A stretch of 53,590 bases of DNA, taken from Prorocentrum cordatum. Lineage: Eukaryota. The position numbers and the translations under genes are program-made. Shown here piece by piece: positions 9,817 to 52,971 of the stretch; position 1 is the first letter of the stretch, and each line of letters starts with the position of its first letter. The stretch is taken from contig CAUYUJ010000308.1 of the NCBI GenBank assembly GCA_963575745.1, positions 62,001 to 115,590 of the forward strand, in the 5' to 3' direction. The notes under the pieces are model-generated. The model was not told where the DNA came from, did no database searches, and was given only the letters and a program-made list of their open reading frames with translations.

Positions 9817-9914
<98 letters not shown>

Positions 9915-14500: not shown

Positions 14501-16209
14501 ATGTGCGCTCCCCCATTGCCCACTTGCCTTTGCAGCTGCAGGCTGCTGCCTTGTCATGCTTCCAGAGTGGTCTTGGAGTCAGTGCCATTGTCGACGAGCC
14601 AGCATCATGACCGAACGCCAATGACGAGTCCCACTCCTATTGGTTCAACCGAGCAGAGGGTGAGGATGACAAGTTTCAGCCTTGGCCGAGGCGTCATGGT
14701 GTGAACACATGCTATCTCCTCTGCTTGCCCCCTCCCCAGTGCCCCCCCCTGTGCTTCTGCATCTGCTGCCTGGACCGCCTTGCAGACCGCTCGTGGAACC
14801 ATGGCCTTCATCGGGCGTGCTTTGTGTTGGTATCGTTCGTTCTTGTCGGCACAACCGAGCCGAGGGTGAGGATGAAGTATTGCAGCCGTGGCCGAGGTCC
14901 TGTTCTGCGTGTGCTGGCCATCGCCACGTTTTCGAGACGCCTGGATCGTCGTCAAATGTGTGCTGGCCAGATGGGCCTTGTTCTGGATCCATCTCGTTCC
15001 GAAGTCCTCCTCCTCCATCTCCGCTCCAGTGCCAACCTGGGAGGCCGCTCTGGGGTGCGCCTGGATTGCGGCCGCGCCGTTTTAACGGCCGGCAGCTTCT
15101 TCCATGAGGCGTCGGCTATCCAACCGCGCCATATTTTGTTGCCAATGTCTGGCATGAAGCGCCCCGCGTTGTTTTTTTCAACTTGGGGCGTCATCCGCTC
15201 AGAGGACAGCTCACGTCCACTGCGCGACTTGGGCGCCCCCTGCTGGGGTGGCGTTCGAATGACCGTTTCGGTGGGAGTGCGGGCGGGGAGGGGCCGGGGC
15301 AGGCGGAAGGGAGGAGGAGCCATACCCGCGGTGAGCCAGCTTTTCCGAAGGCGCGGCACCGCCTTGTCCAACCGACCAGGGGGTGGGGTTGACGAGATCA
15401 TATTAGAAGTGCCGTTGTGTCAGCATGTGCGCTCCCCCATTGCCCTCTTGCCTTTGCAGCTGCTGCCTTGTCATGCTTCCAGAGTGGTCTTGGAGTCAGT
15501 GCCGTTGTCGACGAGCCATCGTCATGACCGAACGCCAATGACGAGTCCTACTCCTATTGGTTCAACCGAGCAGAGGGTGAGGATGACAAGTTTCAGCCTT
15601 GGCCGAGGCGTCATGGTGTCAACACATGCCCTCACCTCTGATTGTCCCCTCCCCAGTGCCCCCCCGTGCATCTGCATCTGCTGCCTGGACCTCCTTGCAG
15701 ACCGCTCGTGGAATCATGACCTTCATCGGGCGTGTTTCGGGCTGGTAATTATCATTCGTTCTCGTCGGCGCAACCGAGCCGAGGGTGAGGATGAAGTATT
15801 GCAGCCGTGGCCGAGGTCCTGCTCTGCGTGCGCTGGCCATCGCCACGTTCTCGAGACGCCTGGATCGTGGTCAAATGGGTGCCAGCCAGGTGGGCTTTTT
15901 TTTGGATCCATCTCGTTCCGAAGCCCTACTCCTTCATCTCCGCTCCAGTGACAACCTGGGAGGCCGCTCTGGGGTGCGCCTGGATTGCGGGCGCGCCGTT
16001 TTAACGGCCGGCAGCTTCTTCCATGAGGCGTCGGCTATCCAACCGCGCCATAGCCAGGCCAATGTCTGGCATGAAGCGCCCCGTGCTGCTTTTTTCCCAA
16101 CCAGCCTGTGTTGTTGGGTCCTCGTTTTGAAGAGCCAGCGCCCGCGACCTCCCGCTGCCCCTCCTCCCTCTCCCCATCATCAGCATCCCCATCATCAGGA
16201 TCGCCGTCA

Positions 16210-17022
16210 CCATCATTATCGTCATCATCATCATCACCACCATCATCATCAGTTCGGCACATCCCTCATACCGTTCGTGGCCCCACAGGGAGCTCCACCG
16301 AAGGCCCCAATGGCTGCGTCCTCATGCGTCACCGCCACCCATTACGGCACACCCCCCACAGGGTTCGTGGCCCCATAGGGAGCTCCACCGAAGGCCCCAG
16401 TGGTTGCGTCCTCATGCGTCACCGCCACCCACTACGGCACACCCCTCACACGGTTCGTGGCCCCATAGGGAGCTCCACCGAAGGCCCCAGTGGCTGCGTC
16501 CTCATGCGTCACCGCCACCCATTACGGCACACCCCTCACACGGTTCGTGGCCCCATAGGGAGCTCCACCGAAGGCCCCAGTGGTTGCGTCCTCATGCGTC
16601 ACCGCCACCCATTACGGCACACCCCTCACGCGGTTCGTGGCCCCACAGGGAGGTCCACCGAAGGCCCCAGTGGCTGCGTCCTCATGCGTCACCGCCACCC
16701 ATTACGGCACACCCCTCACGCGGTTCGTGGCCCCATAGGGAGCTCCACCGAAGGCCCCAGAGGCTGCGTCCTCATGCGTCACCGCCACCCAATTCGGCAC
16801 ACCCCTCACGCGGTTCGTGGCCCTACAGGGAGGTCCACCGAAGGCCCCAGTGGCTGCGTCCTCAGAGCGTCACCGCCACCCACTACGGCACACCCCTCAC
16901 ACGGTTCGTGGCCCCAGAGGATGTTCCACCGAAGGCTCCAGTGGGAGGGTTCGCATGTCACCACCGCGCCCAATCCAGCACGCCCCTCACTGTGCGTGGC
17001 CCCATAAGGAGCTCCACCGAAA
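16210..17022. repeat. Short (CAT)n plus 90-bp minisatellite block (~8 units)
   Basis: Same 90-bp unit and same degenerate terminal units. Confidence 0.95.
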
Positions 17023-21983: not shown

Positions 21984-22443
21984 CCACCGAAGGCCCCAGT
22001 GGCTGCGTCCTCATGCGTCACCGCCACCCATTACGGCACCCCCCTCACACGGTTCGTGGCCCCATAGGGAGCTCCACCGAAGGCCCCAGTAGCTGCGTCC
22101 TCATGCATGCGTCACCGCCACCCATTATGGCACACCCTTCACACGGTTCGTGGCCCCATAGGGAGCTCCACCGAAGGCCCCAGTGGTTGCGTCTTCATGC
22201 GTCACCGCCACCCATTACGGCGCACCTCTCACACGGTTCGTGGCCCCATCGGGAGCTCCACCGAAGGCCCCAGTGGTTGCGTCTTCATGCGTCACCGCCA
22301 CCCACTACGGCACACAACTCACACATTTCGTGGCCCCAGAGGATGTTCCACCGAAGACTCCAGTGGGAGGGCTCGCATGTCACCACCACGCCCTCCGGCA
22401 CGCTCTTCACTGTGCGTGGCCCCACAAGGAGCTCCACCGAAAG
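21984..22443. repeat. 90-bp minisatellite block (~5 units) with no (CAT)n lead-in
   Basis: Same unit, entered directly from the satellite monomer at gccttgtcca|ccgaagg. Confidence 0.92.
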
Positions 22444-24160
22444 CGGTACCCACAATGCGGTACTCGCAGTTTTATATGGTTGTGTCTTTCGTTAGGCTAA
22501 TTTTCAACCTGGGGCGTCATCCACTCAGAGGACAGCTCACGTCCACTGCACGACTTGGGCGCCCCCTGCTGGGGTGGCGTGCGAATGTCCGTCGCAGTGG
22601 GAGAGCGGGCGGGGAGGGGCCAGACAGACAGTAGGGAGGGGGAACCATATCCGCTTTCAGCCAGCTTTTCCGAAGGCACCGCACCGTCAAGCTTCATTCC
22701 GCCTTGTCCAACCGACCAGGGGGTGGGGTTAACGAGATCATATTAGAAGTGCCGCGGTGCCAGCATGTGCGCTCCCCCATTGCCCGCCCGCTCCCCCGCC
22801 TGCCCGCCTGCCATTGATGCGCTTCCAGGGTTGTCTCGGAGTCATTGCCGTTGTCGACGAGCCGGCATTACGACTGAACGCCAGTGACGAGTCCCATTCC
22901 TATTGGTTCAACCGATCAGAGGGTGAGGAGGACAAGTTTCAGCCTTGGCCGAGGCGTCATGGTGTCAACACATGCCCTCACCTCTGAGTGCCCCCTCCCC
23001 AGTGCCCCATCTGCTGCCTGGACCGCCTTGTAGACCGCTTGTGGAATCATGGCTTTCATCGGGCGTGCTTCGTGGTGGTATCATTCGTTCTCGTCGGCGC
23101 AACCGAGCCGAGGGTGAGGATGAAGTATTGCAGCCGTGGCCGAGGTCCTGCTCTGCGTGCGCTGGCTATCGCCACGTTCTCGAGACGCCTGGATCGTGGT
23201 CAAATGGGTGCTGGCCAGGTGGGCCTTGTTCTGGATCCATCTCGTTCCGAAGCCCTCCTCCTCCATCTCCGCTCCAGTGCCAACCTGGGAGGCCGCTCTG
23301 GGGCGCGCCTGGAATGCGGACGCGCCGTTTTAACGGCCGGCAGCTTCTTCCATGAGGCGTCGGCTATCCAACCGCGCCATAGCCAGGCCAATGTCTGGCA
23401 TGAAGCGCCTCGTGTTGCTTTTTTTCAGCCTGGGGCGTCATCCGCTCAGAGAACAGCTCACGTCCACTGCACGACTTGGGGGCCCCCTGCTGGGGTGGCG
23501 TGCGAATGACCGTCGCGGTGGGAGTGCGGGCGGGGAGGGGCCGGGCAGGCGGAAGGGAGGAGGAGCCATAGCCGCGCTGAGCCAGCTTTGCCGAATTTTC
23601 GGCAGCGTCGAGCTTTATTCCGCCTTGTCCAAGCGAGCAGGGGGTGTGGTTGACGATTTCTGAAGCGCCGCTGTGTCAGCATGTGCGCTCCCCCATTGCG
23701 CCATTGCCAGCGCCCTCATGACAGCATCTCGCCATTTCGGCACAGCCTTCACACGCTTCTTGGCCCCATACGGACGTCCCCTCCCTTCGTCCTGCCTGCC
23801 TTTCGGTATTCGCGCCTGCATATGGCCGGGTCCGTCGCCAGGATAAGTTTTGATCCATCATCTCTTTCCGAAGGTCTCCTCTTCCATACCCGCTCCAGTG
23901 CCAACCTGGGAGGCCGCTCTGGGGCGCGCCTGGATTGCGGCCGCGCCGTTTTAACGGCCGGCAGCTTGTTCCATGAGGCGTCGGCTATCCAACCGCGCCA
24001 CATCCGGGCCAATGTCTGGCATGAAGCGCCCCGTGTTGCTTTTTTTTCAACCAGCCTGTGTTGTTGGGTCATCGTTTTGAAGAGACAGCGCCCGCGACCT
24101 CTCGCTGCCCCCCCTCCCTCTCCCCATCATCAGCATCCCCATCATCAGGATCACCGTCAC

Positions 24161-25510
<1,350 letters not shown>

Positions 25511-37715: not shown

Positions 37716-38166
37716 CAGGCGGTAGCGCACGGGCGCCCCCGGGCTGCCCGCGGCGGCGGCGCGGCGCCCGTGGCCTGGGCCGCCGCTGCGGTGCCGGGAG
37801 CCGGCCGCGGCGCCGCGCCAGCGAGGGGCCCAGCCGGCGGTCGCCCGAGGCCAGGCTCCGAGGCCCAGCCGACCTCCTCCTCCCTCCTCCCTCCTCCTCC
37901 TCCTCCTCTCCTCCTCCTCCTTTTCCTCTTCCTCCTCCTCCTCCTCCTGCTCCTGCTCCTCCTCCTCCTGCTCCTCCTCCTCCTCCTCCTCCTCCTCTAT
38001 CCTCCTCCTTCTCCTCGATCCTCGATCCTCCCCTCCTCCTCCTCCTCCTCCTCCTCCTCCTCCTCCTCCTCCTCCTCGATCCTCCTCCTCGATCCCTATG
38101 GAAGGGGTTCGGCCTGGGGGGTACCCTAGAAGAGGCGCGCGTCCTTACTATGCGCGTTGGCTGGAA

Positions 38167-38451
38167 GTCATTCTTTCGCTCCAGAGTGTAAGGTCCGTGC
38201 CGACCACCCCCCCAGGCCGAACCCCCTACATGGGGGGAACGACGAATGACAGAAAGATAACAACTCGGAGGTCCGGCGGATTTCTCGGATCGGCGCTTCG
38301 CGCGCCAGGGAGGGGGGTACAGCGCCGATCCGAGGAATCCGCGCGGACCTCCAAGTTCTTATATTTCTGTCATTCTTTGTTCCCCCGTGTAGGGGGTTCG
38401 GCCTGGGTGGGTCGTCGGCACGGACCTTGCATTCTGGGGGGAAAGAAGGAC
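38167..38451. mobile_element. ~285-bp fold-back (long inverted repeat) element
   Basis: Arms ~38167-38297 and ~38321-38451 are near-complementary (aggtccgtgccgac..cccaggccgaaccccctaca vs tgtagggggttcggcctggg..gtcggcacggacct); the inner arms and loop resemble 51975-52227. Confidence 0.85.
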
Positions 38452-40666: not shown

Positions 40667-41092
40667 ACTCAGGCGATCGCAAACAAGGACTAAGGGGGCG
40701 TGGATTAGCGACGGGTCCCGTTTCCATGAGAGATCGCGGACTTCCGCCGCCGAGCGAGGCGGCAGAGGCCGCATCTTGGGGAGGGCACCTCTCCCGACCC
40801 GTGGATTTGGCGACCGCGCGCCGGGTCCATGGATCGCCCATCCATGCTGGCGCGCCCCCGAGAGGAGGAGGACCAGGAGGAGGAGGAGGAGGAGGAGGAG
40901 GAGGAGGAGGAGGAGGAGGAGGAGGAGGAGGAGGAGGGGAGGAGGGGAGCAGGAGGAGGAGGAGGAGGAGGAGGAGGAGGAGGAGGAGAGGAGGAGCGAG
41001 GAGGAGGAGGAGGAGGAGGAGGTGGAGGAGGAGGAGGAGGAGGACGTCGGTTCCCGGGCGGTGGATGTGGACGGATCCCCGCCTCGCCGCAG

Positions 41093-41225
41093 GAGGCCCT
41101 GGGCACGGCGGGCAGGCGGGCCGCCCCGCAGCCGGGCACGGCGGGCCGCTCACCCCGGAGGAGGAGCACCGGCAGGCCGTCGCCAAGCGGGAGGCGGAGA
41201 AGGCGTCGGCTGGCTGGGAGCCCAG
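41093..41225 (+). CDS. Candidate exon ...GPLTPEEEHRQAVAKREAEKASAGWEPR
   Basis: cgcAG|G acceptor, G/C-ending codons and a helical-looking peptide; donor and gene context are unresolved. Confidence 0.3.
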
Positions 41226-41644
41226 GGGTGGAGGGCTTCTCCGGAGGGCTTGGGCGACCCGTCCTCCTCGTCCTCCTCGTCCTCCTCGTCCTCCTCGTCC
41301 TCCTCCTCCTCGTCCTCCTCCTCCTTGTCCCTCCTCCTTGTCCCTCCTCCTCCTCCTCCTCCTCCTCCTCCTCCTCCTCCTCCATCTCCTCCCCCTCCCC
41401 CTCCTCCACCTCCCCCTCCTCCTCCTCGGGTCGCCTACGGCCCCGGGGGAAACCGTGCACCCAGGGGTGGATCCAAAAACGGTGTTTTGGCGACTTCGTG
41501 GGGCCGTCTTCGTTTCCATGCCGTTCTGCAGCAGAGCCAGATGGATGGAAGACGACACCGGGGAGAACGAGAACAGGAGGGAGACGAAAGGCACTTCCCT
41601 AAGGGCTTGTCGACTTTTCGCCAATCGACTTGTGAGAATCGAGC

Positions 41645-41740
41645 CAGATAAACCCAGGTAAATGCAGATAAATCGAGGTAAATCCAGGTAAATCTAGATA
41701 AATCAGGGTAAATCCAGGTAAATCCAGAGATCTCCAGGGA
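41645..41740. repeat. 10-bp tandem repeat (GGTAAATCCA)n
   Basis: About eight degenerate rrtaaatcca units. Confidence 0.85.
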
Positions 41741-41931
41741 AAGTTCGAGCACTTCGCGGCCGCTCCAGCGCGAGTCGAAGGACGGCAGAAGTCGTTAAGC
41801 CTTTAACGAGCACTGCTCAGGTTCATCCCCGTGGGAGCCTCAGGGCAGGGGGCAGACGCAGGGAGCCCGTCGGCGGCCAAGCGAGGGGGGGAAAATACGC
41901 TCGCAGAGAGCCCCGAGGCGGGAACTCCTAC

Positions 41932-42206
41932 GTGACCACCGCCCAGAGGGTCAGTGTTCGGAGCCTCGGCAGGCGGTGGACATGGACATATATGCGGCCC
42001 CCCCGGGGGCAATACATATATATATATATATATGTATACATGTGTGTATATATATATATATTTATATTTATATTTATATATATGTATATGTATATGTATA
42101 TATATATATTTATATATATGTATATCTATGTATATATATGTATACATGTGTATATATACATATATATATATACATATCCACACCCACCGCCCGCTGGGGC
42201 ACCAGG
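41932..42206. repeat. Hairpin element copy 2 with an expanded (TA/TG)n microsatellite (42013-42177)
   Basis: Flanks match 40551-40666 (tgaccaccgcc..ttcggag..cctcggcaggcggtgga..; accgcccgctggggcaccagg). Confidence 0.85.
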
Positions 42207-42221
42207 GCGTCGGTTCCCGGG

Positions 42222-42243
42222 TCCGTAGCCATTTTGGTTCAAG
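42222..42243 (+). other. Relict dinoflagellate spliced leader (DinoSL) in genomic DNA
   Basis: TCCGTAGCCATTTTGGTTCAAG vs the consensus DCCGTAGCCATTTTGGCTCAAG is 21/22; it ends 63 nt upstream of the PPR ATG. Confidence 0.93.
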
Positions 42244-42306
42244 GCTCAGCAGTTGAGATTCTCGGGAGGCGTGACGTGCACCAACACCTGATGCGGAGAT
42301 CCGTTG

Positions 42307-43810
42307 ATGCAGAAAAGCTTGAAGGGGTCTCGGCAGGGTGCCTCCGTCAAAGGTGCGATCGACAAGTGTGGGGCCGCAAAGCAATGGATTGCAGCGCTGC
42401 GACTGCTGCGCGAGGCGTCCCAACCACATGCGGATTGCAGCCTCAGTCTGTATTGTGTGACCGTAGGCATATGCGGAAAAAGCAAACAGTGGCGACATGC
42501 GCTGTCGCTTTTCAGGGAGCTGGCTGGCATGATGCTGGAGCCAGACGTCATCTGCTACAGCAGCGGTATCAGCGCGTGCGGAAATGCCAATCAGTGGCAG
42601 CAGGCGCTGTGGCTGCTCAGGGAGATGTGGTCGCTGGATCTAATGCCAGACCACATTAGCTACACCGCTGGGATCAGCGCGTGCAGCACAGGTGTAGAGT
42701 GGCAGCGGGCACTGTTCTTGATCAGCGAGATGCGGGAGGTGAGATTGGAGCCGAACGGCTTTAGTTACAGCTGCGGGATTAGCGCCTGCGGGAAATGCGG
42801 GCAGTGGCAGCCTGCGCTGTCGTTGCTCAGGGAAGCGTGGGAGGCGAGGTTGGAGCCAAATGTGATCAGCTGCAATGCTGCGATCAGCGCGTGCGAGAAA
42901 GGCAGGCAGTGGGAGCAGGCGCTGTCGCTGCTTGGCGAGATGCGGGAGGGGGCACTGGAACTCAACGTTAGGAGCTACAATGCTGGGATCAGCGCGTGCG
43001 AAACATGTGCGCAGTGGCAGCAAGCATTATCGTTGCTCGGCGAGATACGGGATGTGAAGTTGGATTTGGACGTTTTCAGCTACAGCGGCGGAATCAGCGC
43101 GTGCGGGAAAGGCGGGCAATGGCAGCAGGCGTTGTCGCTGTTCAACGAGATGTGGCAAGCGAAGTTGGAGTTGGATGTCGTTTGCTGCAGTGGGGGCGTC
43201 AGCGCGTGCGAGAAAGGCGGGCAGTGGCAGCAGGCGCTGTCGCTGCTAAGTGGGATGTGGGACGCGACGATGAAACCAGACGCCTTCATCTACGGTGCTG
43301 GGATCAGCGCGTGCGAGAAAGGCGGGCAGTGGGAGCAAGCGATGTCGCTGCTCAGCGAGATGCGAAACGTGAAATTGCAGCTTGACATTGTATGCTCCAG
43401 TGGCGCGATCAGCGCCTGCGAAAAATGCGGGCAGTGGCAGCAGGCACTGTCATTGCTCGGCAAGATGCGGGAGGCGAAGTTGAAGCCAGACGTCACCAGC
43501 TACAGCGCTGCGATCAGCGCATGTGAGAAAGGTGGACCGTGGCAGCACGCGCTGTCGCTGCTTAGCGAGATGCGGGAGGTTGAATTGAGACCAAACGTCA
43601 TCAGTTACACTGGTGTGATCCGCGTGTTCGGAGTAGGCGGGCAGTGGCAGCAGGCGTTGTCGATATTGGGCGACATGTTAGCGGCAACGCTAAAATTTGA
43701 CGTCCTCTGCTGCAATGAAGGAATCAACGCGTGTCAGAAAGGCGGGCAGTGGCAGCAAGCGTTGGCGGTGATCGGGCAGATGCAGGAGGCGAGCGTGGAG
43801 CCAGACATCA
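42307..43810 (+). CDS. P-class pentatricopeptide repeat (PPR) protein, 5' part (repeats 1-14), probable retrogene
   Basis: Tandem 35-aa repeats [34 protein letters not shown], uninterrupted for 1.5 kb; ATG at 42307. Confidence 0.93.
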
Positions 43811-45436
43811 TCTCTTCTACATGGCCGGTGGAAGCGCGTGCGAGAAGCCCAGGGCCTCAAGTGCACAACATCGTCCCTTTCCGGCGCCAACACGGGGCCG
43901 AATCGCTCAGGTCAGTCCCAGAGGCGCTCCAGAGGGGTTCCCAGACCGTCCAAGAGCGCTCCAAGTCGACCTCAGTGGGTCCCGAGACGGCCCACGAGGG
44001 CCCGAAGCCTTCCCGGGGTGGCTCCACGACGATCCATGAGGCCGCAAAGACGCCCCAAGAGGGCCCCGAGCGCACGCCAAAGAGTCACAAATCGTCAAAT
44101 TCCGATAGGAAAACGTATATTTTCAGCATGCCCGCCTTATGTGCTCCTCAGTGGCCCGGGACACGCCAAGAGGCCTCCCAAATCGCTCCAAGAAGACGCC
44201 AGCAGCCCCTAAGAGGGCTCCAAGACGGCCCACAAGAGCCCCAAGACGACGCCAGAGAGCCCTGAAACGGCCTCACAGAACCCCAAGACGGCCCCAAGAG
44301 AACTCCTAGGGGGCCCCGAGTGGCTCCCAAGACGGCCTCAGGCAGCCTCAAGAGAGCTCCAAGACGGTCCAAGGCCTACCGGACGCCCCGTGACGGCCCA
44401 AAACGGCACCAAGACGTCCCAAAACGCTCCCAGAGCAGCCCAAACAAGCTTCTGAATGGCCCGAGAAAGACCCCCACAAGGACCACCAAGCAGGTCCAGA
44501 GACGCCCATTAAAAGAGCGATCGGTGAAGTACAAAGCTCTTCTCACCAAGTCTCCCAAGAGCGGGCCGCAGGCCCTGGTGCGCTTCGAAGATGGCCAACG
44601 AGCGCTCCGAGATGCCCCCGGAGGCCCCCAAGAGGGCCCCAAGGGGGTCCAAGACCGTCCAAGAGAGACTCCAAGGCGCCCAAGATTCCTTCTACACGGC
44701 TTCAGACGCCTCCGGAACGTCCCGACGGGGCTCCGAGAAGGGCCCCGAGAGGGCCCAAACAAGAACAAATCGTCACAATCCCCAGGGAAAACTTGCATTT
44801 TTGTAATTCCCGTGCTTTTCGTCTCCGACGCTTCCACGACGGCCATACAGGCTCCCAAGAGTGTTTAAGATCCCCAGGCCAGCCGCATGAGGGCCCCAAG
44901 ACAGCCCAACACAGCATCCAGACGGGTCCTGAGGCGCTCATGACAGCCCACGAGCCATCCAAGACAGCCTCAAGAGCTGCCCAAGATGCTCCAAGACGGC
45001 GCCAAGACGATCTTAGCCGAAAAGCTCCAAACTCCATGGACTGCCGACAACCTCGAGAGCGTCCAGGAGGCCGAAAGAAGCTCCGAGAAGCTCCCAAACT
45101 ATCCCTAGGAGAAGACAGCGCCCGCCTTCTGGTTTCTACAAGACAAACAACACAGTTTCCGGATCCGGACACGCTTCGTGGCCGCATCCGGACCGCTGCC
45201 CTTCTCCGTGGGTGCGGGCGCCCGCCGTCACGCTTCACCCAGGCAACTGGGAAGACCTCACCACAGCTTTCCGGGCGTACCCCGCCCACGGATCTTCGCC
45301 GTACTTAGAGCGCTGCTCTTCTCCGTGGGTGCGGGCGCGAGAGCGCGAAGGTATGCGCGTATGGCACGGAGCTGCGCTGTGGAGGCGCACCAGGGGGACC
45401 TGAAGGTCGTGGGCGAAGTCCACGGGTTCGCCCTAG
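43811..45436 (+). mobile_element. Non-autonomous Helitron-like insertion (1626 bp)
   Basis: Starts TC, ends CTAG and sits between A(43810) and T(45437). Hairpin CGTGGGC-GAA-GTCCACG (45408-45424) ends 12 nt before the 3' end. Removal restores [13 protein letters not shown]. No RepHel ORF is visible. Confidence 0.85.
43900..45110. repeat. (CCCAAGANGG)-type low-complexity repeat inside the Helitron-like element
   Basis: Reverse complement of the 2060-2965 repeat type. Confidence 0.75.
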
Positions 45437-45744
45437 TCAGCTACAACGCTGGGATCAGCGCGTGCGAGAAAGGCATGCAGTGGCAGCGGGCTCTGGTGTT
45501 GCTGAGCGAGATGCTGGAGGCGAAGCTGGTGCCCGACGTCATCAGCTGCCACACTGCGACCAGGGCTTGCGACAGAAGCGGGCAGGTGCAGCAAGCGATC
45601 TGGCTTCTCACCGCGACGCGGAATGCGAAGCTCGAGTCCCACGTCGCCAGCCTCAGCGATGCCATGGTGATTGCGATGCAGAGGTCAGCGTTGCGCAGTT
45701 CCAGCCGCAATCCCGAGACCCGCGCGCGCGAGAGACGCGGGTAG
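45437..45744 (+). CDS. PPR protein, 3' part (repeats 15-16 and C-terminus)
   Basis: [57 protein letters not shown]...ERRG*; continues exactly from 43810. Confidence 0.88.
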
Positions 45745-46099
45745 CCACGGCAGGCCATGCCGCTGGTCGAGGACGAGCCGACGACGGAGACCACAGCCAC
45801 CCTTGCTGCACGCGATACAGTAGGGGTCTTGAAGAAAGAACCCTTTTCGTTGGGGAGGGGCTCGGTGTTCCTGGGTTGTTCGACAGTTTGCCTTCTGTTT
45901 TCTTGAGGTTTTCCATGGGAAATCGAAGTTCAACTTATGGGAGAAGGGGGCCCCGTTCCTTAGTTAGATTTCCTTGGGTCAACGCCCCGACTGTACTGGG
46001 CAGCGCGCGTGCCGCCGGGGCCCGCTGGCTGCAGACGGCCTGGCCCTGGGCGGCAGAGCTGCGCCCCGGGGGGCGCCTCGGCCGCGGGCGTCCAGGTCT

Positions 46100-46261
46100 C
46101 AGGAGGGAAAGAAACACACAGACACAATTAATCGCCGATTCCCCAGAAAATATGGGAACATATGGGAAGTGGGGGGGAAGACAAACAACCAGAAAATAGG
46201 GGAAAATAGGGGGAAACCTTTGAACTGTGTGTATTTATTTGTGTGTCTCAGGGCCCCTTCA
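46100..46261 (+). mobile_element. 162-bp CAGGAGGG...CCCCTTCA element, 6-bp TSD AGGTCT
   Basis: AGGTCT at 46094-46099 and 46262-46267. Confidence 0.88.
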
Positions 46262-46349
46262 AGGTCTCCTCCGCGGGAGAGCCCCGGACCGTCCTCGGCG
46301 GCCCCGCGCTCTGCCCGAAGCCCCCCCCCCGCACGTGCCCCGCGCTCGG

Positions 46350-46510
46350 CAGGAGGGGAAAAACCACACAGACACAATGAATCGTCGATCCCCCAGAAAA
46401 TATGGGAGAGTATGGGAGTTGGGCGGGAAGACAAAAACCCAGAAAATGTGGGAAAGTATGGGGAATTGTTTTATTGTGGGTATTTATTTGTGTGTCCTGG
46501 GGCCCCTTCA
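46350..46510 (+). mobile_element. 161-bp CAGGAGGG...CCCCTTCA element, 6-bp TSD GCTCGG
   Basis: GCTCGG at 46344-46349 and 46511-46516. Confidence 0.88.
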
Positions 46511-46863
46511 GCTCGGCCACGAGGGCCCGCCCTGCCCGCGGGACGGCGCCGGGCGAGGGCGAGGACGAGGGCGAGGCCGAGGCGCGGGGCGGGCGGGCGC
46601 GCGTCACGCGGGCGTCTTGCCCCTCGGCCCGGGCGAGGCCTCCAGGGGCGCCCTGGGCCCGCTGCTGGTGCCAGCCCCCTCCTCGTCTGCGGCACGCCCT
46701 GCGCTGGACGTGCGGGCCATCTCGCCGCCCGGGGAGCGGGGCCAGCCTCGCGGGCGCGGTGCTGGAGCGTCCTTCAACGAGGAAGAGGACGGCGGCTCCC
46801 GGGCGGTGGACGTGGACAAGCCCCCGCCTCGCGCGATAGGGGCCTGTCAGCCCCGCACCGCCC

Positions 46864-46978
46864 AGGAGGAGGAGGAGGAGGAGGAGGAGGAGGAGGAGGA
46901 GGAGGAGGAGGAGGAGGAGGAGGAGGAGGAGGAGGAGGAGGAGGAGGAGGAGGAGGAGGAGGAGGAGGAGGAGGAGGA
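46864..46978. repeat. Perfect (GAG)n microsatellite
   Basis: Read directly; similar (GAG)n/(CTC)n tracts occur at 37520-38090, 39021-39390, 40862-41425, 50228-50790 and 51495-51790. Confidence 0.95.
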
Positions 46979-48000
46979 CCAGGGCGAAAGGGGGGCAGAT
47001 GGCAAGAGTGTGGAACAGGCACCGGGCGAGGGGTCCAGGTGATCGTTTTTTGTTCCTTGTTCTGCCGATCGGCGAGGGGCCTCGGGCCCCCCCTCCTCCC
47101 CTTCCCTCCCTGGAGTGTGGCTCTTGGCTGTTCTTTGGCGCCTGCTTCGAGCAGGTGGGGTCCCTCCCCCATGGGACGCACTGTCGCAAGCAGTCGCACT
47201 AAGCAGAGGTCCGGAGTCAGACCCCCCCCCCCCCCGCCCAGTGTCGAAACGCCCCGAATGAGAAAACGCTCACCAGCGGGTCCAGGGGTCGAGGCTTCCG
47301 TTTCTCTGTGCAGCGAGAGCTGCCAGGACCCTCGTGGTGACAGTAGGTACGGGCCCGTCGTCGTTTCCTGATTCGTCGCCCTCCGCCTCTGACTCGTCAC
47401 CCCCTCAGCGCCGTCCCCTGGCCGCTTCCTCGGCGCGCTGCCCGGCTCGGTGGCCTGGTGGCTCCCTGGCTCGTCGCCCCGTTCTCTGCCTCGCCCCCTG
47501 GCTTGCTGGTGCGTCCCCTGGTTCCTCGCTGGGGGTCGTCCCCGCTCTCGTCTCTGGGCTCGTCTCGCCCGTCTCCCGGCTGGTCCACTTGTCTGGCAGC
47601 CGTGCCCGTCGTAGCAAGGTCGTCGCCCTCCCCGTGTTCCCCCGCTCCGTCGCCCCTTTCCCTGGGACTCTCCTGGTTCCCGTGGTCTGACCCGACTCGT
47701 CGGCCTGATCGTTGGGTCATTCCTGGTCTCGGTGCCCCGATCACCAGTTCGTTTCTGTGCTCGGCGGCAGGGTCGTTCTGTGTCTGGTCGCCCTGGGCCC
47801 TGGCTCGTTCCTTGGCTTGGCTTCTGGGTCCCTGCCTGCCCGATGTGATGTGGACTACGCTTCGCGAGCCTGCTCCGGGTGTTGCTAGAATTACCCCTGG
47901 CCCAAGGTCCCCCCAGGATTCTCTGGGTGGCCCAGACGGCCTCCAGGCACCCCTCACGAGGTCCAGAGGGCCCCAGGGGCTCAAACATGGAGCGAAAAGC

Positions 48001-48122
48001 TGGGGGCACCTTGGGCCAGGGGCACTTCTAGCCGTGCTTGGGCCAGGGCCTGGGGCACCTTGGGCCTGGGGCACCTTGGGCCAGGGGCACCTTGGGCCAG
48101 GGGCACCGTGGGCCAGGGGCAC
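48001..48122. repeat. ~19-bp tandem repeat (GGGGCACCTTGGGCCA...)n
   Basis: Repeated ggggcaccttgggcc units. Confidence 0.85.
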
Positions 48123-48583
48123 CCGACTGCTCAGGATCTCCCCAGTTCCTTGCTGCCCCCCTCGGCCTTGGGCCCCGACCCTCTACAGGGCTGCCCCTGT
48201 GCCCCCCGGCCGGCGAGAGGCCGCCCTGCGCGCGCAGATCCAGGCGCAGGAGGACCGTTCCTGTCTTGCGCTGCTTCTGGCGCAGCTGCCCCCTTTCTCT
48301 CGCCACCCAGGGCTCGTTTCGATTCTCTCGATTCTTTCGATTCTTTGATGGCTTCCGATTCCGATTCGACTCGACTCGATTCGACTTCGATGGCTTCTGA
48401 TTCCGATTCGATTCGACTTGGGATTCCAGTTTGGGCTCCGATGTCTCGTTGGAGGCACACTGGCCTGCCGATCTCCGCCGACCCGACGTCTCCCGACGTG
48501 GCCCCCGATTCCCGCCGATCCGATTCGCTTCGATCGCCGATTCGACCTCGATTCGATCCTGGACTCTCCTGCCCTCGCCACCC

Positions 48584-48704
48584 TTGAACGAAGGATTGCA
48601 AAAAAAACCGAAGGATTGCAAAAAACGCCCAGGATGGAATGCAAAACAACCCAGGGTTTTTTTGCAATCCTTCGGTTTTTTTGCAATCCTTCGTTTGGGT
48701 TTTT
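48584..48704. mobile_element. ~120-bp hairpin element flanked by the 9-bp direct repeat TCGCCACCC
   Basis: Two cgaaggattgcaaaaaa units opposed by two tttttgcaatccttcg units; TCGCCACCC at 48575-48583 and 48705-48713. Confidence 0.65.
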
Positions 48705-48804
48705 TCGCCACCCACCCGCACGACGCCCAACGCCCGGCTCACGCCACTCTCGCCGCCACCCGCACCCGAGCCTGCACTCGGCCATCGGCCCGCCGCCTAC
48801 CTCC

Positions 48805-48969
48805 CAGGAGGCGAAAAAACACACACACAGACACAATGAATCGTCCACTCCCAGGAAAATATGGGAAACATGGGAAGTGGGGGGGAAGAGAAACACCCCG
48901 AAAATATGGGAAAATATGGGGGATATTTTTATTTGTGTGTATTTACTTGTGTGTCCCAGGGCCCCTTCA
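48805..48969 (+). mobile_element. 165-bp CAGGAGG...CCCCTTCA element, 6-bp TSD ACCTCC
   Basis: ACCTCC at 48799-48804 and 48970-48975. Confidence 0.88.
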
Positions 48970-49031
48970 ACCTCCCCTGCCCGCCCTCTCGAGCCCGCCC
49001 CCCTCCCGCTTCTCACCCTTCCACAGAAGAA

Positions 49032-49202
49032 CTTATGTCGGGCATGCCCCTCCACGGGGAGGAATGCTTATCAGTAGTCAAAGCAAATCATATTGTTTTT
49101 GGTGTCACGGTGCCTTTCTTCTCGGATTTTTGAGATAAAGAGGACGTGCTTCCCCCCCCCAAACACAAACATCCGCCTGTAGGGGGACGTGCCCGACCTG
49201 AA
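49032..49202. mobile_element. Second full copy of the GTCGGGC/GCCCGAC MITE
   Basis: cttatgtcgggcatgcccctcc...ggaggaatgct..agtagtcaaa...cctgtagggggacgtgcccgacctgaa; flanks are degenerate (GAAGAA/GAAAAG). Confidence 0.75.
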
Positions 49203-50301
49203 GAAAAGCGGGGGAAACCCAAAAGGTACCCATGCCGCTGCTCCCCAGACCTCTCCCGGGGCGCGCTCCGACCAGGGTCCCGAGGCGAAGCCGGCGGTGG
49301 CGACGAGGGCCTCCCAGGAGGCCCCACCAGGGGCAAACGAGAGAAGGATAGGGAGGGAGGGAGGGAGGGATGGCGGGAGGGAGGGAGGGAGGGAGGGAGG
49401 GAAGGACAGCGGCATATCCAGTATAACGTTTTCGCCGTCGGGGGCCTCCGTCCCGGGGCGGCTGGAAAGTTGATACCCTTGCGGTGCCGCGTCAAGGCAT
49501 GCGCTTTCCAGCCGCCCTGGGGCAGCGCCCCCGGCGACGGAAAAGTTTATCTGATACCGTTCTTCGCCCGCTCAGTATATGGGTATCTTTTCTTGCTTCC
49601 CCCCTTCCACCCAGCAGCCACAAAACTTTGGCTCTCTGCCCGCCCTCTGCGCCCTCCCACCAGCCCAGCCATCGCACCCTCTCGCGCAGCCGGGCCAGCG
49701 AGTGTATCACCGAGCGCGCTCCGCTGCTCGCAGAGTGCCTACTCGCAAACGTCTGAAACAAAAACATGTGTGCTTCGATTTAATGTTTTGGCTGATCCGT
49801 TCCTGGGGCGCCTGCTTGCTGTGCCACCGCTCGACGTTACGCGCTCGGTTGCAACGCCTGGGAGGTTAAGTTCAGTATCGGCGCTGGTATATCGGTGGTA
49901 GAAAACTACAGCTTAATGGTCACAATGCTGTTTAATTTCGATGTGTTGCAGTCCTGCCTGATCTGGCTCAATCCTGGGCCCCATCCAGCCAACTACAGCT
50001 TACCACACCCACCTCGTTCTTACGAAGACTTGCCAGAAGCTGTCTCCAACCGATGCCCCCCCTGTTCACCGGGCGCGTTCCACTACTCGCAAAGTGCCTA
50101 CTCGCAAACGTCTGAAAAAGGCTTGTAAATCCCCCGCGGCGGATCCAGGACATTGCAAGCGGATCGCGCTTGTCTACCTGTGCTGCAGCGCTGTGGGAGT
50201 GGGGGGCGGAGAGGGAAAGGAGGGGGGAGGAGGAGGAGGAGGAGGAGGAGGAGGAGGAGGAGGAGGAGGAGGAGGAGGAGGAGGAGGAGGAGGAGGAGGA
50301 T

Positions 50302-50464
50302 CAGGAGGGGAGAAAGCACACAGACACAATTAATCGTCGATCCCCCAGAAAATATGGGAACATATGGGAAGTGGGGCGGAAGACAAAAACCCAGAAAATA
50401 TCGGAAAATATGGGGAATCTTTTTATTTGTGTGTATTTATTTGTGTGTCCCCAGGGCCCCTTCA
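50302..50464 (+). mobile_element. CAGGAGGG...CCCCTTCA element inserted in a (GAG)n tract
   Basis: Full-length body; flanks GAGGAT/GTGGAG (degenerate TSD). Confidence 0.82.
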
Positions 50465-50747
50465 GTGGAGGGAGGGAGGAGGATGAGGAGGAGGAGGAGG
50501 ATGAGGCGAGGTTGGAGGACGGGGCGAGGTTGGAGGAGAGCAGGAGGAGGAGGAGGAGGAGGAGGCGGAGGAGGGACTAGGATGAGGAGGAGTGAGGTGG
50601 AGGAGGAGGAAAGAGAAAGAGAAAGAGGATAAAGGAGGAGGAAGAGGAGGCTCAGGAGCAGGAGCAGGAGGTTTAGGAGGAGGAGGAGGAGGGGAGGAGG
50701 AGGAGGAGGAGGGAGGTAGGAGGAGGAGGAGGAGAGGAGGGAGGAGG

Positions 50748-50783
<36 letters not shown>

Positions 50784-51921
50784 AGGAGGAGAAACTGACT
50801 TTTCGAGCAGTGGAACGCGCATGTCTGGTGGAGCACAAGCGGCGGCAGCGGCAGCGGCGCCCGTGGACGGCCGTCGGCGGCGCTCCCCGAGGGGAGGGCA
50901 GAGGGGGCGCGGGCCCTTTCGGAGGCTTCTCGGAGGGTCTTCCGGCCCTCTGAGAGAAGCTTCGGAGGCCCCCTTCGAGGCCGCGGAGGGCTTCTCGAAC
51001 GCCTCGAACTCCTCGAACTCCTCGAACTCCTCGAGGTCCTCGAAGTCCTCGAACTCGAGCTCGGACTCTCCGAAGCCACAGAGGGCTTCCGAGAAGGCCG
51101 GAGGACTTGTAAGAAGCCCCGCCGCCCTCCGAGAAGGCCTCCTCTGGACGGGGTTAGGGCGAGGAAAGATCCGTTCCAGAGCGTTCCGGAACACTCACAG
51201 AGCGTTCCAGAACGCTCTGAGAAGGCCGCGGCGCCCGATACATTCCCTAGATCTGCCAGATGTCATAGGATCTCGATTCGTCCGTACACGTCCTAGCTTC
51301 GTCTTACTCCTCTCACTTCCCACGCGTCTGACGCTGTTCAGGGATCCGATGCTCCTCTCACCTTCTGCTGCCCCCATCGTGTTTGGGGACCACAGGGCCA
51401 CGCCCCAAAAGCAAGTTCGATCACCCCGCCAAGCGTGGAAGCAGTGTCGAACGAGCATCGCCTCCCAGAGCCCGAGGTGAGCAAGGCGAGCGTGGAGGAG
51501 GAGGAGGAGGAGGAGGAGGATAGGAGGAGGAGGAGGAGGAGGGGGAGGCGGAGGATTTCCTCGGCCCCCCGCCGAAGCCCTGCCTCGCGCACGGTGGGGG
51601 CAGGCGGCGCCCCCTGACGGTGCGCGGCCCGTCTATAAAACACGAGCCTCGAGGACGTCCCTTCCCCCCCCTCCCCTCTTCCACCTCCTCCTCCTCCTCC
51701 CCTCCTCCTCCACCCTCCCTCCTCCTCCTCCTCCTCCTCCTCCTCCTCCTCCCTCTCCTCCTCCCACTCCTCCTCCTCCTCCTCCTCCTCTCGGGCTGTT
51801 TAGTCCAATCCGCACTGGCGCCGATTGTCTGTCGCAGCGAACCACGGCAGGAACCATGGGTGTCCTTGCCAGCCCACGCGTCCTTCAGGATGCATGGCCT
51901 TCTTGCTTGCTTGCTTGCGAG

Positions 51922-51972
51922 GACCTCTACCAGCAGCAGCGCGGGGTGGAGAGGCACCACAGCGACACCGAG
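51922..51972 (+). CDS. Exon of a coiled-coil protein (DLYQQQRGVERHHSDTE)
   Basis: AG|G acceptor at 51921/51922 (alternative at 51888/51889); joins 52229 in frame if 51973-52228 is removed. Confidence 0.55.
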
Positions 51973-52228
51973 GATCAAAGAAGAACAAAACGCCAGAAAC
52001 AGGAACTCTTGGCGCTCCGCGCGGATCTCTTGGACCCGCGCTGGGCCCCCCCGGCGGCGCCTCCGGCGCCGCCCCTGGCGCGCTCCGCGCGCCGGGGAGG
52101 GGGTTCCAGCGCGCCGGCGCCGCCCCTGGCGCGCTCCGCGCGCCGGGGAGGGGGTTCCAGCGCGGATCCAAGAAACCCGCGCGGAGCGCCAAACGTTTAT
52201 GCTTCTGGCGTTTTCTCTTCTTCTGGAG
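51973..52228 (+). mobile_element. Introner-like fold-back element forming a putative 256-nt GA-AG intron
   Basis: ~70-bp imperfect TIRs within 51975-52227; GAGGA overlaps both junctions; AG|GA donor and AG|G acceptor; an internal ~50-bp tandem duplication. Confidence 0.72.
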
Positions 52229-52463
52229 GAGCAGATCGCCCAGCAGAAGGGAGCAACAGGGGCGCGTCTTACCGAGGGCCAGGAGCAGCTGGTGCAGCAG
52301 AAGGCCCAGGCACAGCAGCTGCAGCACGATGCCATCATAAAGGAGGCCGAGGCGCTGAAGGAGAAGGAGCGCCTTCTCCAGGAGCTGCAGGCTCTGGAAG
52401 GCGAGATGCACATGAGGATGAGGCGCCCGCCCATGGTGTCGGTCGAGGAGGACGGGATTCAAA
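52229..52463 (+). CDS. Exon of a coiled-coil protein (EQIAQQKGATGARLTEGQEQLVQQKAQAQQLQHDAIIKEAEALKEKERLLQELQALEGEMHMR...); 3' boundary uncertain
   Basis: E/Q/K/L-rich heptad-like peptide, strongly G/C-ending codons, non-repetitive DNA. Confidence 0.65.
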
Positions 52464-52797
52464 GTGCACGGGCTCCCCCGCCCCCTCCTCCCGGACCCTC
52501 CCCTTCGTCCCCCTTCTCCCCCCTCTCATTCCCGCCCGCTCCCCCCCCCTCCCCTCGAGTCGCCGCTCCTTGCCCTCCCCTCCCTCATCGTCCTCCTCCC
52601 CACGCCCCCTCCTCGCCCGACCTCCCCCCCCCCCCCTCCCCTCCGCTCCCCTCCTCCCTTGGAGCTCCGACGCCGCAGCTTCTCCGCTGCGTGGACGCCC
52701 GGAGGTCTCGGCCCCTTCCCCGGGACAGCTCCTTCCTCCTGGGGCCTTCCTCGGCGGCGCAGACCGCAGGCCTCCCCAGAGGTCGACCATAGCATCT

Positions 52798-52932
52798 CAG
52801 GAGGGAACAAAAACACAGACACAATTAATCGTCGATTCCCCAGAAGATATGGGAAAATATGGGAAGTGGGGGGGAAGACAAAAACCAAGAACATATGGGA
52901 AAATATGGGGAATCGTTTTATTTGTGTGTATT
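52798..52932 (+). mobile_element. 3'-truncated CAGGAGGG family copy
   Basis: Matches the other copies up to tttgtgtgtatt and lacks the CCCCTTCA end. Confidence 0.78.
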
Positions 52933-52971
52933 GATTGCGAAGGCCTTACGGCCTGTGCCGCCGACCCTGAA

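What the first reader, a model, noticed from the sequence alone, without database searches (positions are those of the whole stretch)
51922..52463. Fold-back transposon that appears to be a frame-restoring GA-AG intron (Introner)
Seen: a 253-bp element with ~70-bp inverted arms separates two protein-like segments in different frames. Removing 51973-52228 (GA...AG, 256 nt, phase 0, AG|G at both junctions) yields ...VERHHSDTE|EQIAQQKGATG..., a continuous coiled-coil sequence. The inner arms and loop (cgcgcgcc.gggagggggt..cagcgc) recur at 38240-38370, so the element is dispersed. Established: dinoflagellates use GA and GC donors and AG|G acceptors, and Introner TEs are reported in the group. Inference: this is a TE-derived intron whose splice sites come from the duplicated target.
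Basis: partly seen in the sequence, partly recalled or inferred. Interest (0 to 1): 0.8.

Follow-up and report, generated by a model that had tools for sequence, protein, structure and literature searches.

The report
Transposon-born GA-AG intron in Prorocentrum
A small hairpin-shaped mobile element sits inside a coding exon of a dinoflagellate gene and is missing, exactly, from the mRNA, so it behaves as an intron; this is a clean example of a kind of intron already reported for this species.

Summary
A 251-nt foldback element (51975-52225) flanked by a 5-nt direct repeat GAGGA interrupts a coding exon. The DNA fold is -117.8 kcal/mol, z -10.6.

mRNA-type contigs in 3 of 3 such runs, including two polyA metatranscriptomes from different studies, skip exactly 256 nt here with no other differences. 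They also lack the neighbouring introns. Of the six equivalent cuts, only 51973-52228 reads GA..AG|G.

The public Prorocentrum cordatum protein record (P0001) is reproduced 202/202 by exons that use exactly this intron. Three dinoflagellate homologues align across the junction without a gap. The only genomic-type contig found has the element in place.

The intron meets the structural definition of an "introner element" used in the P. cordatum genome paper, which reports such elements in 2.4% of introns and GA donors in 23.8%. A 5-nt NAGGH target duplication that supplies both splice sites is described for Polarella class 12 elements.

Not shown: DNA and RNA from one strain, and genome-wide copies, because no genome was held.

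The parts
41065..41202 (+). Exon 1 of the public gene model (start codon to ...AEK). It is followed by intron 1, 41203-48219 (GC..AG|G).
   Evidence: tblastn of P0001. Joining the four exons reproduces P0001 202/202. No RNA was laid on this part.
48220..48252 (+). Exon 2 (AALRAQIQAQE).
   Evidence: The loose end of the mRNA contigs before 51919 matches 48233-48249 exactly. By eye, all 30 loose-end letters equal 48220-48249. Model check.
48253..51921 (+). Intron 2, 3,669 nt, GA..AG|G. A 7-nt direct repeat GAGGACC lies at its two boundaries; there is no terminal inverted repeat.
51922..51972 (+). Exon 3, 51 nt (DLYQQQRGVERHHSDTE).
   Evidence: Contigs of X2, X15 and X17 lie on 51919-51969 with 0 other letters. 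Translation.
51970..51974 (.). Left copy of the 5-nt direct repeat GAGGA (putative target-site duplication). It holds the AG|GA of the 5' splice site.
   Evidence: The joint has 'both = 5'. Six equivalent cuts give the same product. Boundary repeat measured.
51973..52228 (+). Intron 3, 256 nt, GA..AG followed by G, phase 0. It equals the foldback element plus one repeat copy.
   Evidence: Skipped in one contig each of X2, X15 and X17. It is the only one of six equivalent cuts with an AG acceptor. It is implied by P0001. As RNA it folds at -189.3 kcal/mol, pairing positions 3-254 of 256.
51975..52225 (.). Body of the foldback, MITE-like element, 251 nt. It is too short to encode a transposase.
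51987..52051 (.). Left arm of the inverted repeat. Its partner is 52150-52214: 65 nt, 85% complementary.
   Evidence: I1. An exact 12-nt inverted repeat AAAACGCCAGAA lies 15 nt from each intron end.
52063..52164 (.). Exact tandem duplication, 2 x 51 nt, in the centre of the element.
   Evidence: (D2).
52150..52214 (.). Right arm of the inverted repeat.
   Evidence: I1.
52226..52230 (.). Right copy of the direct repeat GAGGA. [quoted passage not shown]
52229..52450 (+). Exon 4, 222 nt, coiled-coil segment EQIAQQ...PMVSVEE. The next donor is again GAG|GA at 52451.
   Evidence: The mRNA contigs lie on 52226-52452 with 0 other letters and then continue unlike the window. Homologues stay alignable up to PMVSxEE(D) and diverge from P0001 after it.
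38240..38370 (.). Shorter foldback relative with the same layout: A/G-rich ends, GGATC, and a CGCGCGCC-R-GGGAGGGGG loop.
   Evidence: blastn 76.7% over 90 nt, E 4e-15. Alignment. DNA fold z -14.2.

Best explanation
A non-autonomous foldback DNA transposon (251 nt, MITE-like) inserted into a continuous coding exon of a Prorocentrum cordatum gene. The gene encodes a dinoflagellate-specific coiled-coil protein. The insertion site was GAGGA (Glu + Glu/Asp codons), and the insertion duplicated those 5 nt.

Each copy of the duplication contains AG|GA. The left copy therefore supplies a GA 5' splice site and the right copy supplies the AG|G 3' splice site. The spliceosome removes the element plus one repeat copy (51973-52228, 256 nt, phase 0) and restores the original reading frame. 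The long hairpin probably brings the two sites next to each other.

This makes it an Introner-type, TE-born intron.
- Shown: the structure, the precise absence from mRNA-type contigs, the presence in DNA, and the agreement with the public gene model.
- Inferred: transposition as the origin, splicing rather than absence of the element in the genomes the RNA came from, and the role of the hairpin.
For: 1. **Structure.** The arms are 65 nt at 85% and the whole element is palindromic. The DNA fold has z -10.6. A 5-nt direct repeat flanks it.
2. **mRNA contigs.** One contig each in X2 (886 nt), X15 (697 nt) and X17 (453 nt) joins 51969 to 52226, 'skips 256', with 0 other letters over 278 nt. X15 and X17 are polyA metatranscriptomes of two studies. 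The same contigs also lack intron 2 and the next intron, so they are processed mRNA.
3. **Boundaries.** Only 1 of the 6 equivalent cuts is GA..AG|G.
4. **DNA.** X1 record 8 is a 250-nt contig on 52221-52470 with 0 other letters. It runs from inside the element through the exon into the next intron, so it is genomic and the site is filled.
5. **Public annotation.** The NCBI protein P0001 [Prorocentrum cordatum] is reproduced 202/202 with this intron.
6. **Homologues.** P0002 (55%), P0003 (Pyrodinium bahamense transcript, 42%) and P0004 (33%) align across the junction with no gap. The Glu at the junction is invariant.
7. **Species context.** In P. cordatum 23.8% of donors are GA, 79.7% of acceptors are AGG, and introner elements occur in 2.4% of introns.
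8. **Precedent.** A 5-nt NAGGH TSD giving both splice sites is described for Polarella class 12.
9. **Age argument (inference).** The arms differ by 15%, while 308 nt of exon are identical between window and RNA contigs. That fits an old, fixed insertion better than a polymorphic one.
Against: - The skipped 256 nt equal the element plus one repeat copy. That is also exactly what an empty, never-inserted site looks like.
- All runs laid were assembled contigs with coded organisms. I could not show that RNA and filled DNA come from one strain, and contigs cannot show that a retained form is absent.
- Four of the five repeat letters (AGGA) are also required by the dinoflagellate splice consensus, so the target-site duplication cannot be told apart from the consensus.
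- No run covers the left element end, 51970-51990.
- No second copy at family-level identity was available. The only in-window relative is 77% identical over 90 nt, and two metagenome scans found 0 matches.
- The 3' part of the public model disagrees with the mRNA contigs, so that model is not purely transcript-derived.
Confidence: 0.84

Rival explanations
1. Insertion polymorphism or an uninterrupted paralogue. The joined mRNAs would come from strains, alleles, duplicated copies or retrocopies that never received the element. The filled copy in the window would then be a frame-shifted, disrupted gene copy that is not spliced at this place.
For: The skip equals the element plus one repeat copy, which is the signature of an empty site. 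The organisms of the runs are coded, and the DNA-type run (organism A) and the culture-type run with the joint (organism B) carry different labels. By my own knowledge, dinoflagellate genomes hold many duplicated genes and retrocopies; PMC10666404 discusses duplication (passages).
Against: - There are 0 differences in 278 nt of exon plus 30 nt of upstream exon between the window and the contigs of three runs from three studies. Meanwhile the element's arms have diverged 15%.
- No empty-site DNA contig was seen. X1's contig passes the right junction into the element without stopping at the junction, though depth there is only 2.2.
- The boundaries are a legitimate GA..AG|G intron, and the public annotation calls it one.
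Confidence: 0.09
2. Reverse-transcription artefact. The element stays in the mRNA, but reverse transcriptase jumps across the very stable hairpin between the two GAGGA repeats, so cDNA libraries show a false 'intron'.
For: The RNA hairpin is -189.3 kcal/mol with a 5-nt direct repeat at its base. By my own knowledge, not from a call, that is the classic setting for template switching. All the evidence here comes from cDNA-based contigs.
Against: - Three libraries from three studies all give only the joined form as the assembled contig, at depths 47, 18.9 and 7.2.
- A retained element would shift the frame of a protein conserved across dinoflagellates.
- The neighbouring 3.67-kb intron has the same GAG|GA..AG|GA boundaries but no hairpin, and it is removed as well.
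Confidence: 0.04
3. An ordinary older intron into which a foldback element later inserted. On this reading the element did not create the intron.
For: Foldback and simple-repeat elements litter the neighbouring introns.
Against: The intron holds nothing but the element and one repeat copy: 256 = 251 + 5. The inverted repeat is symmetric at 15 nt from both splice sites, and the RNA hairpin pairs positions 3-254 of 256. No older intron sequence is left.
Confidence: 0.03

Closest known systems
Introner elements (IEs) of Prorocentrum cordatum, as screened in its genome paper (PMC10666404) with the definition of Farhat et al. 2021 (PMC7789003)
   Same: Same species, by the NCBI name of P0001. The intron has a terminal inverted repeat (12 nt exact, 15 nt from each end), a 5-nt direct repeat over the boundaries, and a hairpin. 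That is the published search pattern.
   Different: As far as I read, the paper gives only a structural screen and percentages: 2.4% of introns and about 10-11% of genes (passages and the supplementary note). I saw no sequence families, TSD classes or splice-site origin for this species. I did not see its Tables S1 and S2.
Polarella glacialis introner-like elements, class 12 (5-nt TSD NAGGH) and class 14 (AGGH); Roy et al., bioRxiv 10.1101/2020.10.14.339549, later Curr Biol 2023
   Same: A DNA-transposon-like element whose target duplication supplies both the 5' (GH) and 3' (AG) splice sites. GAGGA fits NAGGH. There is a GA donor, which the preprint reports as more common in recently gained introns, and the phase is 0.
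   Different: Different species. Here the copy number and the share of copies that are introns are unknown.
Introners of Micromonas pusilla and Aureococcus anophagefferens (Huff, Zilberman & Roy 2016; known to me only as cited and from recall)
   Same: A non-autonomous DNA transposon with TIR and TSD. One or both splice sites are co-opted from the TSD, so splicing removes the element plus one TSD copy.
   Different: Those use canonical GT-AG sites and carry one splice site inside the element (passage on Aureococcus). Here both sites lie in the duplication and the donor is GA.
Amoebophrya introners (PMC7789003)
   Same: Hairpin-forming introns with 3-5-nt direct repeats over the boundaries and 8-20-nt inverted repeats. 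The hairpin is proposed to bring the exon ends together.
   Different: Amoebophrya introners have widely variable non-canonical boundaries. This one has the standard dinoflagellate GA..AG|G.

Membership tests
Introner element sensu Farhat 2021 / Dougan 2023 (structural definition) | The sequence is an intron, i.e. removed from mRNA. | tested here: met
   One contig each in X2, X15 and X17 skips 256 nt. The public protein implies the same intron. Caveat: RNA and DNA from the same strain were not shown.
Introner element sensu Farhat 2021 / Dougan 2023 (structural definition) | An inverted repeat of 8-20 nt within 30 nt of each intron end. | tested here: met
   AAAACGCCAGAA, 12 nt exact, lies 15 nt from each end. 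Among 5,000 random pairs of 30-mers from the neighbouring introns, 0.16% reach 12 nt.
Introner element sensu Farhat 2021 / Dougan 2023 (structural definition) | A direct repeat of 3-5 nt at or over both boundaries. | tested here: met
   GAGGA at 51970-74 and 52226-30.
Introner / ILE sensu Huff 2016, Roy 2023, Gozashti 2022 (family definition) | Many similar copies, each coextensive with an intron in unrelated genes. | not testable with these tools
   No genome was held, and the metagenome scans found 0 matches. The only indirect signs are very high word depth of the core in DNA and RNA runs and one 77% relative in the window.
Introner / ILE sensu Huff 2016, Roy 2023, Gozashti 2022 (family definition) | TIR plus TSD of a DNA transposon, with splice sites taken from the TSD and/or the element ends. 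| tested here: met
   However, 4 of the 5 TSD letters are also splice consensus, so TSD and consensus cannot be separated.
Introner / ILE sensu Huff 2016, Roy 2023, Gozashti 2022 (family definition) | Evidence of gain: the intron is absent at this position in orthologues or other strains. | not testable with these tools
   The homologues found are transcripts or ORFs without gene structure.
Polarella class 12 ILE | A 5-nt TSD of the form NAGGH that supplies both splice sites. | tested here: met
   GAGGA; the intron starts at GA of the left copy and ends at AG of the right copy. Pattern as described.
Polarella class 12 ILE | Sequence homology to the class. | not tested
MITE (non-autonomous TIR DNA transposon) | Short, no transposase, terminal inverted repeats, TSD, multicopy. 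| tested here: inconclusive
   Length 251 nt, TIR and flanking repeat are met. Multicopy status is supported only by word depth, which the tool says is not a copy number. No autonomous partner or superfamily was identified.

The most novel reading that the evidence does not exclude
All the introns of this gene that could be examined were born the same way. Three consecutive donors read GAG|GA (48253, 51973, 52451). The 3.67-kb intron 2 still carries a 7-nt boundary direct repeat GAGGACC, although it has lost, or never had, terminal inverted repeats.

If that holds genome-wide, TSD-generating insertions at GAGGA-like Glu/Asp codon pairs created far more of the P. cordatum introns than the 2.4% recognised by the published hairpin screen. 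The long introns of this 4.75-Gb genome would then be expanded introners.
Probability: 0.35. Interest if true: 0.5.

Novelty: new member of a known kind. Interest (0 to 1): 0.3.

Why it matters
This is a compact, fully resolved example of how a transposon insertion into coding sequence becomes a harmless intron at once. The duplicated target GAGGA carries both splice sites, so splicing restores the original codons.

It gives the P. cordatum "introner element" statistic a concrete sequence and a target-site class. It also links a Prorocentrales species to the TSD-recruitment mechanism worked out in Suessiales.

It does not open a new question. The phenomenon is published for this genome and the intron is already annotated.

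One practical by-product: the deposited gene model appears to read through the next donor at 52451. It replaces the conserved C-terminal part of the protein with a proline-rich translation of intron sequence.

Tried and rejected
- **Own genome.** The search was not possible because no genome is held. A family census and a count of intron overlap could not be made.
- **Rfam.** 0 matches in the window.
- **Metagenome scans.** A 26-nt piece of exon 4 and a 24-nt piece of the element core both gave 0 matches. No empty-site or filled-site DNA from elsewhere, and no further copies, were obtained.
- **Next downstream exon.** A 16-nt motif from the loose end after 52452 gave 0 matches in the window with up to 2 mismatches. 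That exon lies outside the window.
- **Word-index protein searches.** Exon 4 searched among longer proteins, and P0001 residues 30-150 searched among near lengths, returned only P0001 itself. Only the exhaustive HMMER search found homologues.
- **Pfam.** Only a sub-threshold DUF3545 match, E 0.013 and 15.9 bits against a cut-off of 25. Rejected.
- **Earlier scan notes.** One unrelated bacterial hit sharing 3 of 140 words, and nothing for this genome.
- **Shares of words in the 24 listed runs.** 0.32-0.46 for X1-X18, 0.04-0.06 for X19-X20, and next to none (0.00) for X21-X24. An element-less form would give about 0.47 by my arithmetic. The filled DNA-type run X1 also has 0.46, so the share alone does not discriminate.
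- **Parts of the stretch without cover** (51816-51865; 51970-51990 in all runs). No conclusion drawn.
- **Joint 51812 to 51869** in X15 and X17. The shorter side is 21 letters, which is under 30, so it was set aside as likely repeat or foreign.
- **Joint 52090 to 52177** in X17. It has 4 other letters between the sides, so another copy of the repeat family is the likelier source.
- **Terminal inverted repeats in introns 1 and 2.** The longest are 6 and 3 nt, at chance level.

Full report
**1. What is in the sequence.**

Between 51975 and 52225 lies a 251-nt foldback.
- The repeat finder reports arms 51987-52051 and 52150-52214 (65 nt, 85% complementary). It also reports an exact 2 x 51-nt tandem duplication at 52063-52164 (TRF agrees).
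- A blastn of the element against the window finds its own reverse complement over positions 4-248 at 74.6%.
- As single-stranded DNA the region folds at -117.8 kcal/mol, against -71.4 +/- 4.4 for 200 shuffles. That is z -10.6, and none of the shuffles folds as well.
- As RNA, the 256-nt intron folds at -189.3 kcal/mol with pairs from position 3 to 254.
- The element is flanked by GAGGA on both sides, at 51970-74 and 52226-30.

The protein-like segments to the left and right are in different frames.

**2. Is it removed from mRNA?**

No run among the 24 listed holds more than 0.46 of the sampled words of 51900-52470. I laid X1 (DNA?), X2 (kind unknown), and X15 and X17 (polyA metatranscriptomes of two studies) on 51791-52519. 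All four are assembled contigs.
- One contig each in X2 (886 nt, depth 47), X15 (697 nt, depth 18.9) and X17 (453 nt, depth 7.22) lies on 51919-51969 and on 52226-52452 with 0 other letters.
- Each of these contigs joins the two parts: 'skips 256', with 5 letters fitting either side.
- The same contigs continue unlike the window before 51919 and after 52452.
- The letters before 51919 are found exactly at 48233-48249. By eye, all 30 equal 48220-48249.

These contigs are therefore processed mRNA from which a 3.67-kb upstream intron and a downstream intron have also been removed.

Of the six cuts that give the same product, only 51973-52228 has an AG acceptor. It reads GA..AG followed by G.

**3. 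Is the element in DNA?**

X1 record 8 is a 250-nt contig on 52221-52470 with 0 other letters. It starts 5 nt inside the element, crosses exon 4 and runs 18-20 nt into the next intron.
- It is therefore genomic, and the site is filled at its right junction.
- Its depth is only 2.2, and the run may be the window's own source sample.
- No run covers 51970-51990.
- The core of the element has summed word depths up to 67,782 in X1 and 1,430 in X15. It belongs to something highly repeated that is also present in polyA RNA. The tool warns that this figure is not a copy number.

**4. The gene.**

A protein search with exon 4 returned one hit, 100% identical: 'unnamed protein product, partial [Prorocentrum cordatum]', 202 aa (P0001).
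- Joining 41065-41202, 48220-48252, 51922-51972 and 52229-52612 reproduces it 202/202. The public annotation therefore already contains the intron 51973-52228.
- Pfam finds nothing above threshold.
- The exhaustive HMMER search finds 4 proteins with E <= 0.001: P0001 itself and three relatives. These are P0002 (55%, 330 aa), P0003 (42%, a Pyrodinium bahamense transcript by its UniRef name) and P0004 (33%).
- In the alignment all three run across the junction without a gap, and the junction Glu is invariant.
- They stay alignable up to PMVSxEE(D) and then diverge from P0001's proline-rich tail. That is the point (52450-52452) at which the mRNA contigs leave the window. The tail of the public model (52451-52612) is therefore probably intron read-through.

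**5. Mechanism.**

- Shown: the intron equals the element plus one copy of the flanking repeat. Each repeat copy contains AG|GA. The donor GA is in the left copy, and the acceptor AG and the following G are in the right copy. The phase is 0.
- Inferred: a non-autonomous DNA transposon inserted at GAGGA in a continuous exon and made a 5-nt target-site duplication. It was spliceable at once because the duplication carried both sites. The hairpin juxtaposes the sites.

This is the mechanism described for introner-like elements of Polarella glacialis. There, class 12 has a 5-nt TSD NAGGH, and class 14 a TSD AGGH, from which both splice sites are recruited. GA donors are over-represented among recent gains (passages of the bioRxiv version; I did not see the Curr Biol version).

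**6. Comparison with what is known for this species.**

The P. cordatum genome paper (PMC10666404; passages and the supplementary note read) reports the following.
- Genome G+C of 59.7%; the window bins run 0.54-0.69.
- Donors GT 24.7%, GC 51.4% and GA 23.8%.
- AGG acceptors at 79.7%.
- Introner elements in 2.4% of introns.

Its search pattern, taken from Farhat et al. (PMC7789003), is an inverted repeat of 8-20 nt and a direct repeat of 3-5 nt within 30 nt of each intron end. Intron 3 meets it: an exact 12-nt inverted repeat lies 15 nt from both ends, and the direct repeat is 5 nt. Only 0.16% of 5,000 random 30-mer pairs reach 12 nt.

My three literature searches found no paper that describes sequence families or TSD classes of introners in Prorocentrum. 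I could not see Tables S1 and S2 of the genome paper.

**7. Rivals.**

- (a) *Empty site.* The skip is exactly what an uninserted allele, paralogue or retrocopy would show, and I could not tie RNA and DNA to one strain. Against it: 308 nt of exon are identical between the window and three runs, while the element's arms differ by 15%; no empty-site DNA contig was seen; and the boundaries are legitimate splice sites. I give it 0.09.
- (b) *Reverse-transcriptase jump across a -189 kcal/mol hairpin between 5-nt repeats.* Against it: only the joined form is assembled in three libraries; the protein is conserved; and intron 2 has the same GAG|GA..AG|GA boundaries without any hairpin. I give it 0.04.
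- (c) *An older intron later invaded by the element.* Against it: no intron sequence is left over. I give it 0.03.

**8. Verdict.**

Novelty is low. The intron is in the public annotation, and the class is published for this genome and mechanistically for a related dinoflagellate. What is added here is the explicit anatomy and target class for one P. cordatum element, mRNA support from independent libraries, and a likely error in the 3' end of the gene model.

**9. Side observation that could be worth more.**

The three donors examined all read GAG|GA. The 3.67-kb intron 2 carries a 7-nt boundary repeat GAGGACC without terminal inverted repeats. This would fit serial intron creation by TSD-forming insertions at Glu/Asp codon pairs, followed by decay and expansion. 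It needs a genome-wide test.

Noticed in passing
window 48250-48256 and 51919-51925: The 3,669-nt intron 2 of the same gene has an identical 7-nt sequence GAGGACC at both boundaries, but no terminal inverted repeat (longest 3 nt). Its donor is also GAG|GA, as is the donor of the next intron at 52451.
   Followed up: partly
window 52451-52612: The public gene model (P0001) reads on through a proline-rich stretch. The mRNA contigs leave the window at 52450-52452, and three homologues diverge at the same point. This is a likely intron read-through in the deposited model.
   Followed up: partly
window 38110-38430: The shorter foldback relative at 38240-38370 sits in the centre of a second, outer palindrome (ggttcggcctgggg... 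/ ...ccaggccgaacc). The DNA hairpin runs on into the flanks. It is either nested or modular foldback elements.
   Followed up: partly
window 41000-41053 / 41256-41330 and 51474-51544 / 51699-51760: (GGA)n and (TCC)n simple repeats face each other as inverted repeats around unique segments of about 150-230 nt. One such pair brackets exon 1 of the gene model (41065-41202).
   Followed up: no
window 9850-11580, 16100-17000, 22000-22500, 24150-25350 and further: Arrays of a 90-nt tandem repeat are interspersed with a repeat of about 930 nt (19-22 copies between 6.9 and 37 kb). Most of the first 37 kb of the window is satellite-like.
   Followed up: no
window 48826-48965, 50316-50470 and (reverse strand) 52800-52945: By eye, a dispersed unit of about 140 nt (cacacagacacaat...gaaaatatggg...tttgtgtgtcccagggcccc) occurs three times around the gene. 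Two copies are in intron 2 and one is downstream in the opposite orientation.
   Followed up: no
window 48590-48700 and 49420-49560: By eye, two further short palindromic (foldback-like) segments lie inside intron 2.
   Followed up: no
loose ends (X15 at 52197, X17 at 52092): Other copies of the repeat family in polyA RNA contigs end in ...CTTCTTC followed by GAGG or CAG|GA. That resembles the right end and AG|G junction of this element. Only the printed 30-letter consensus was available.
   Followed up: no
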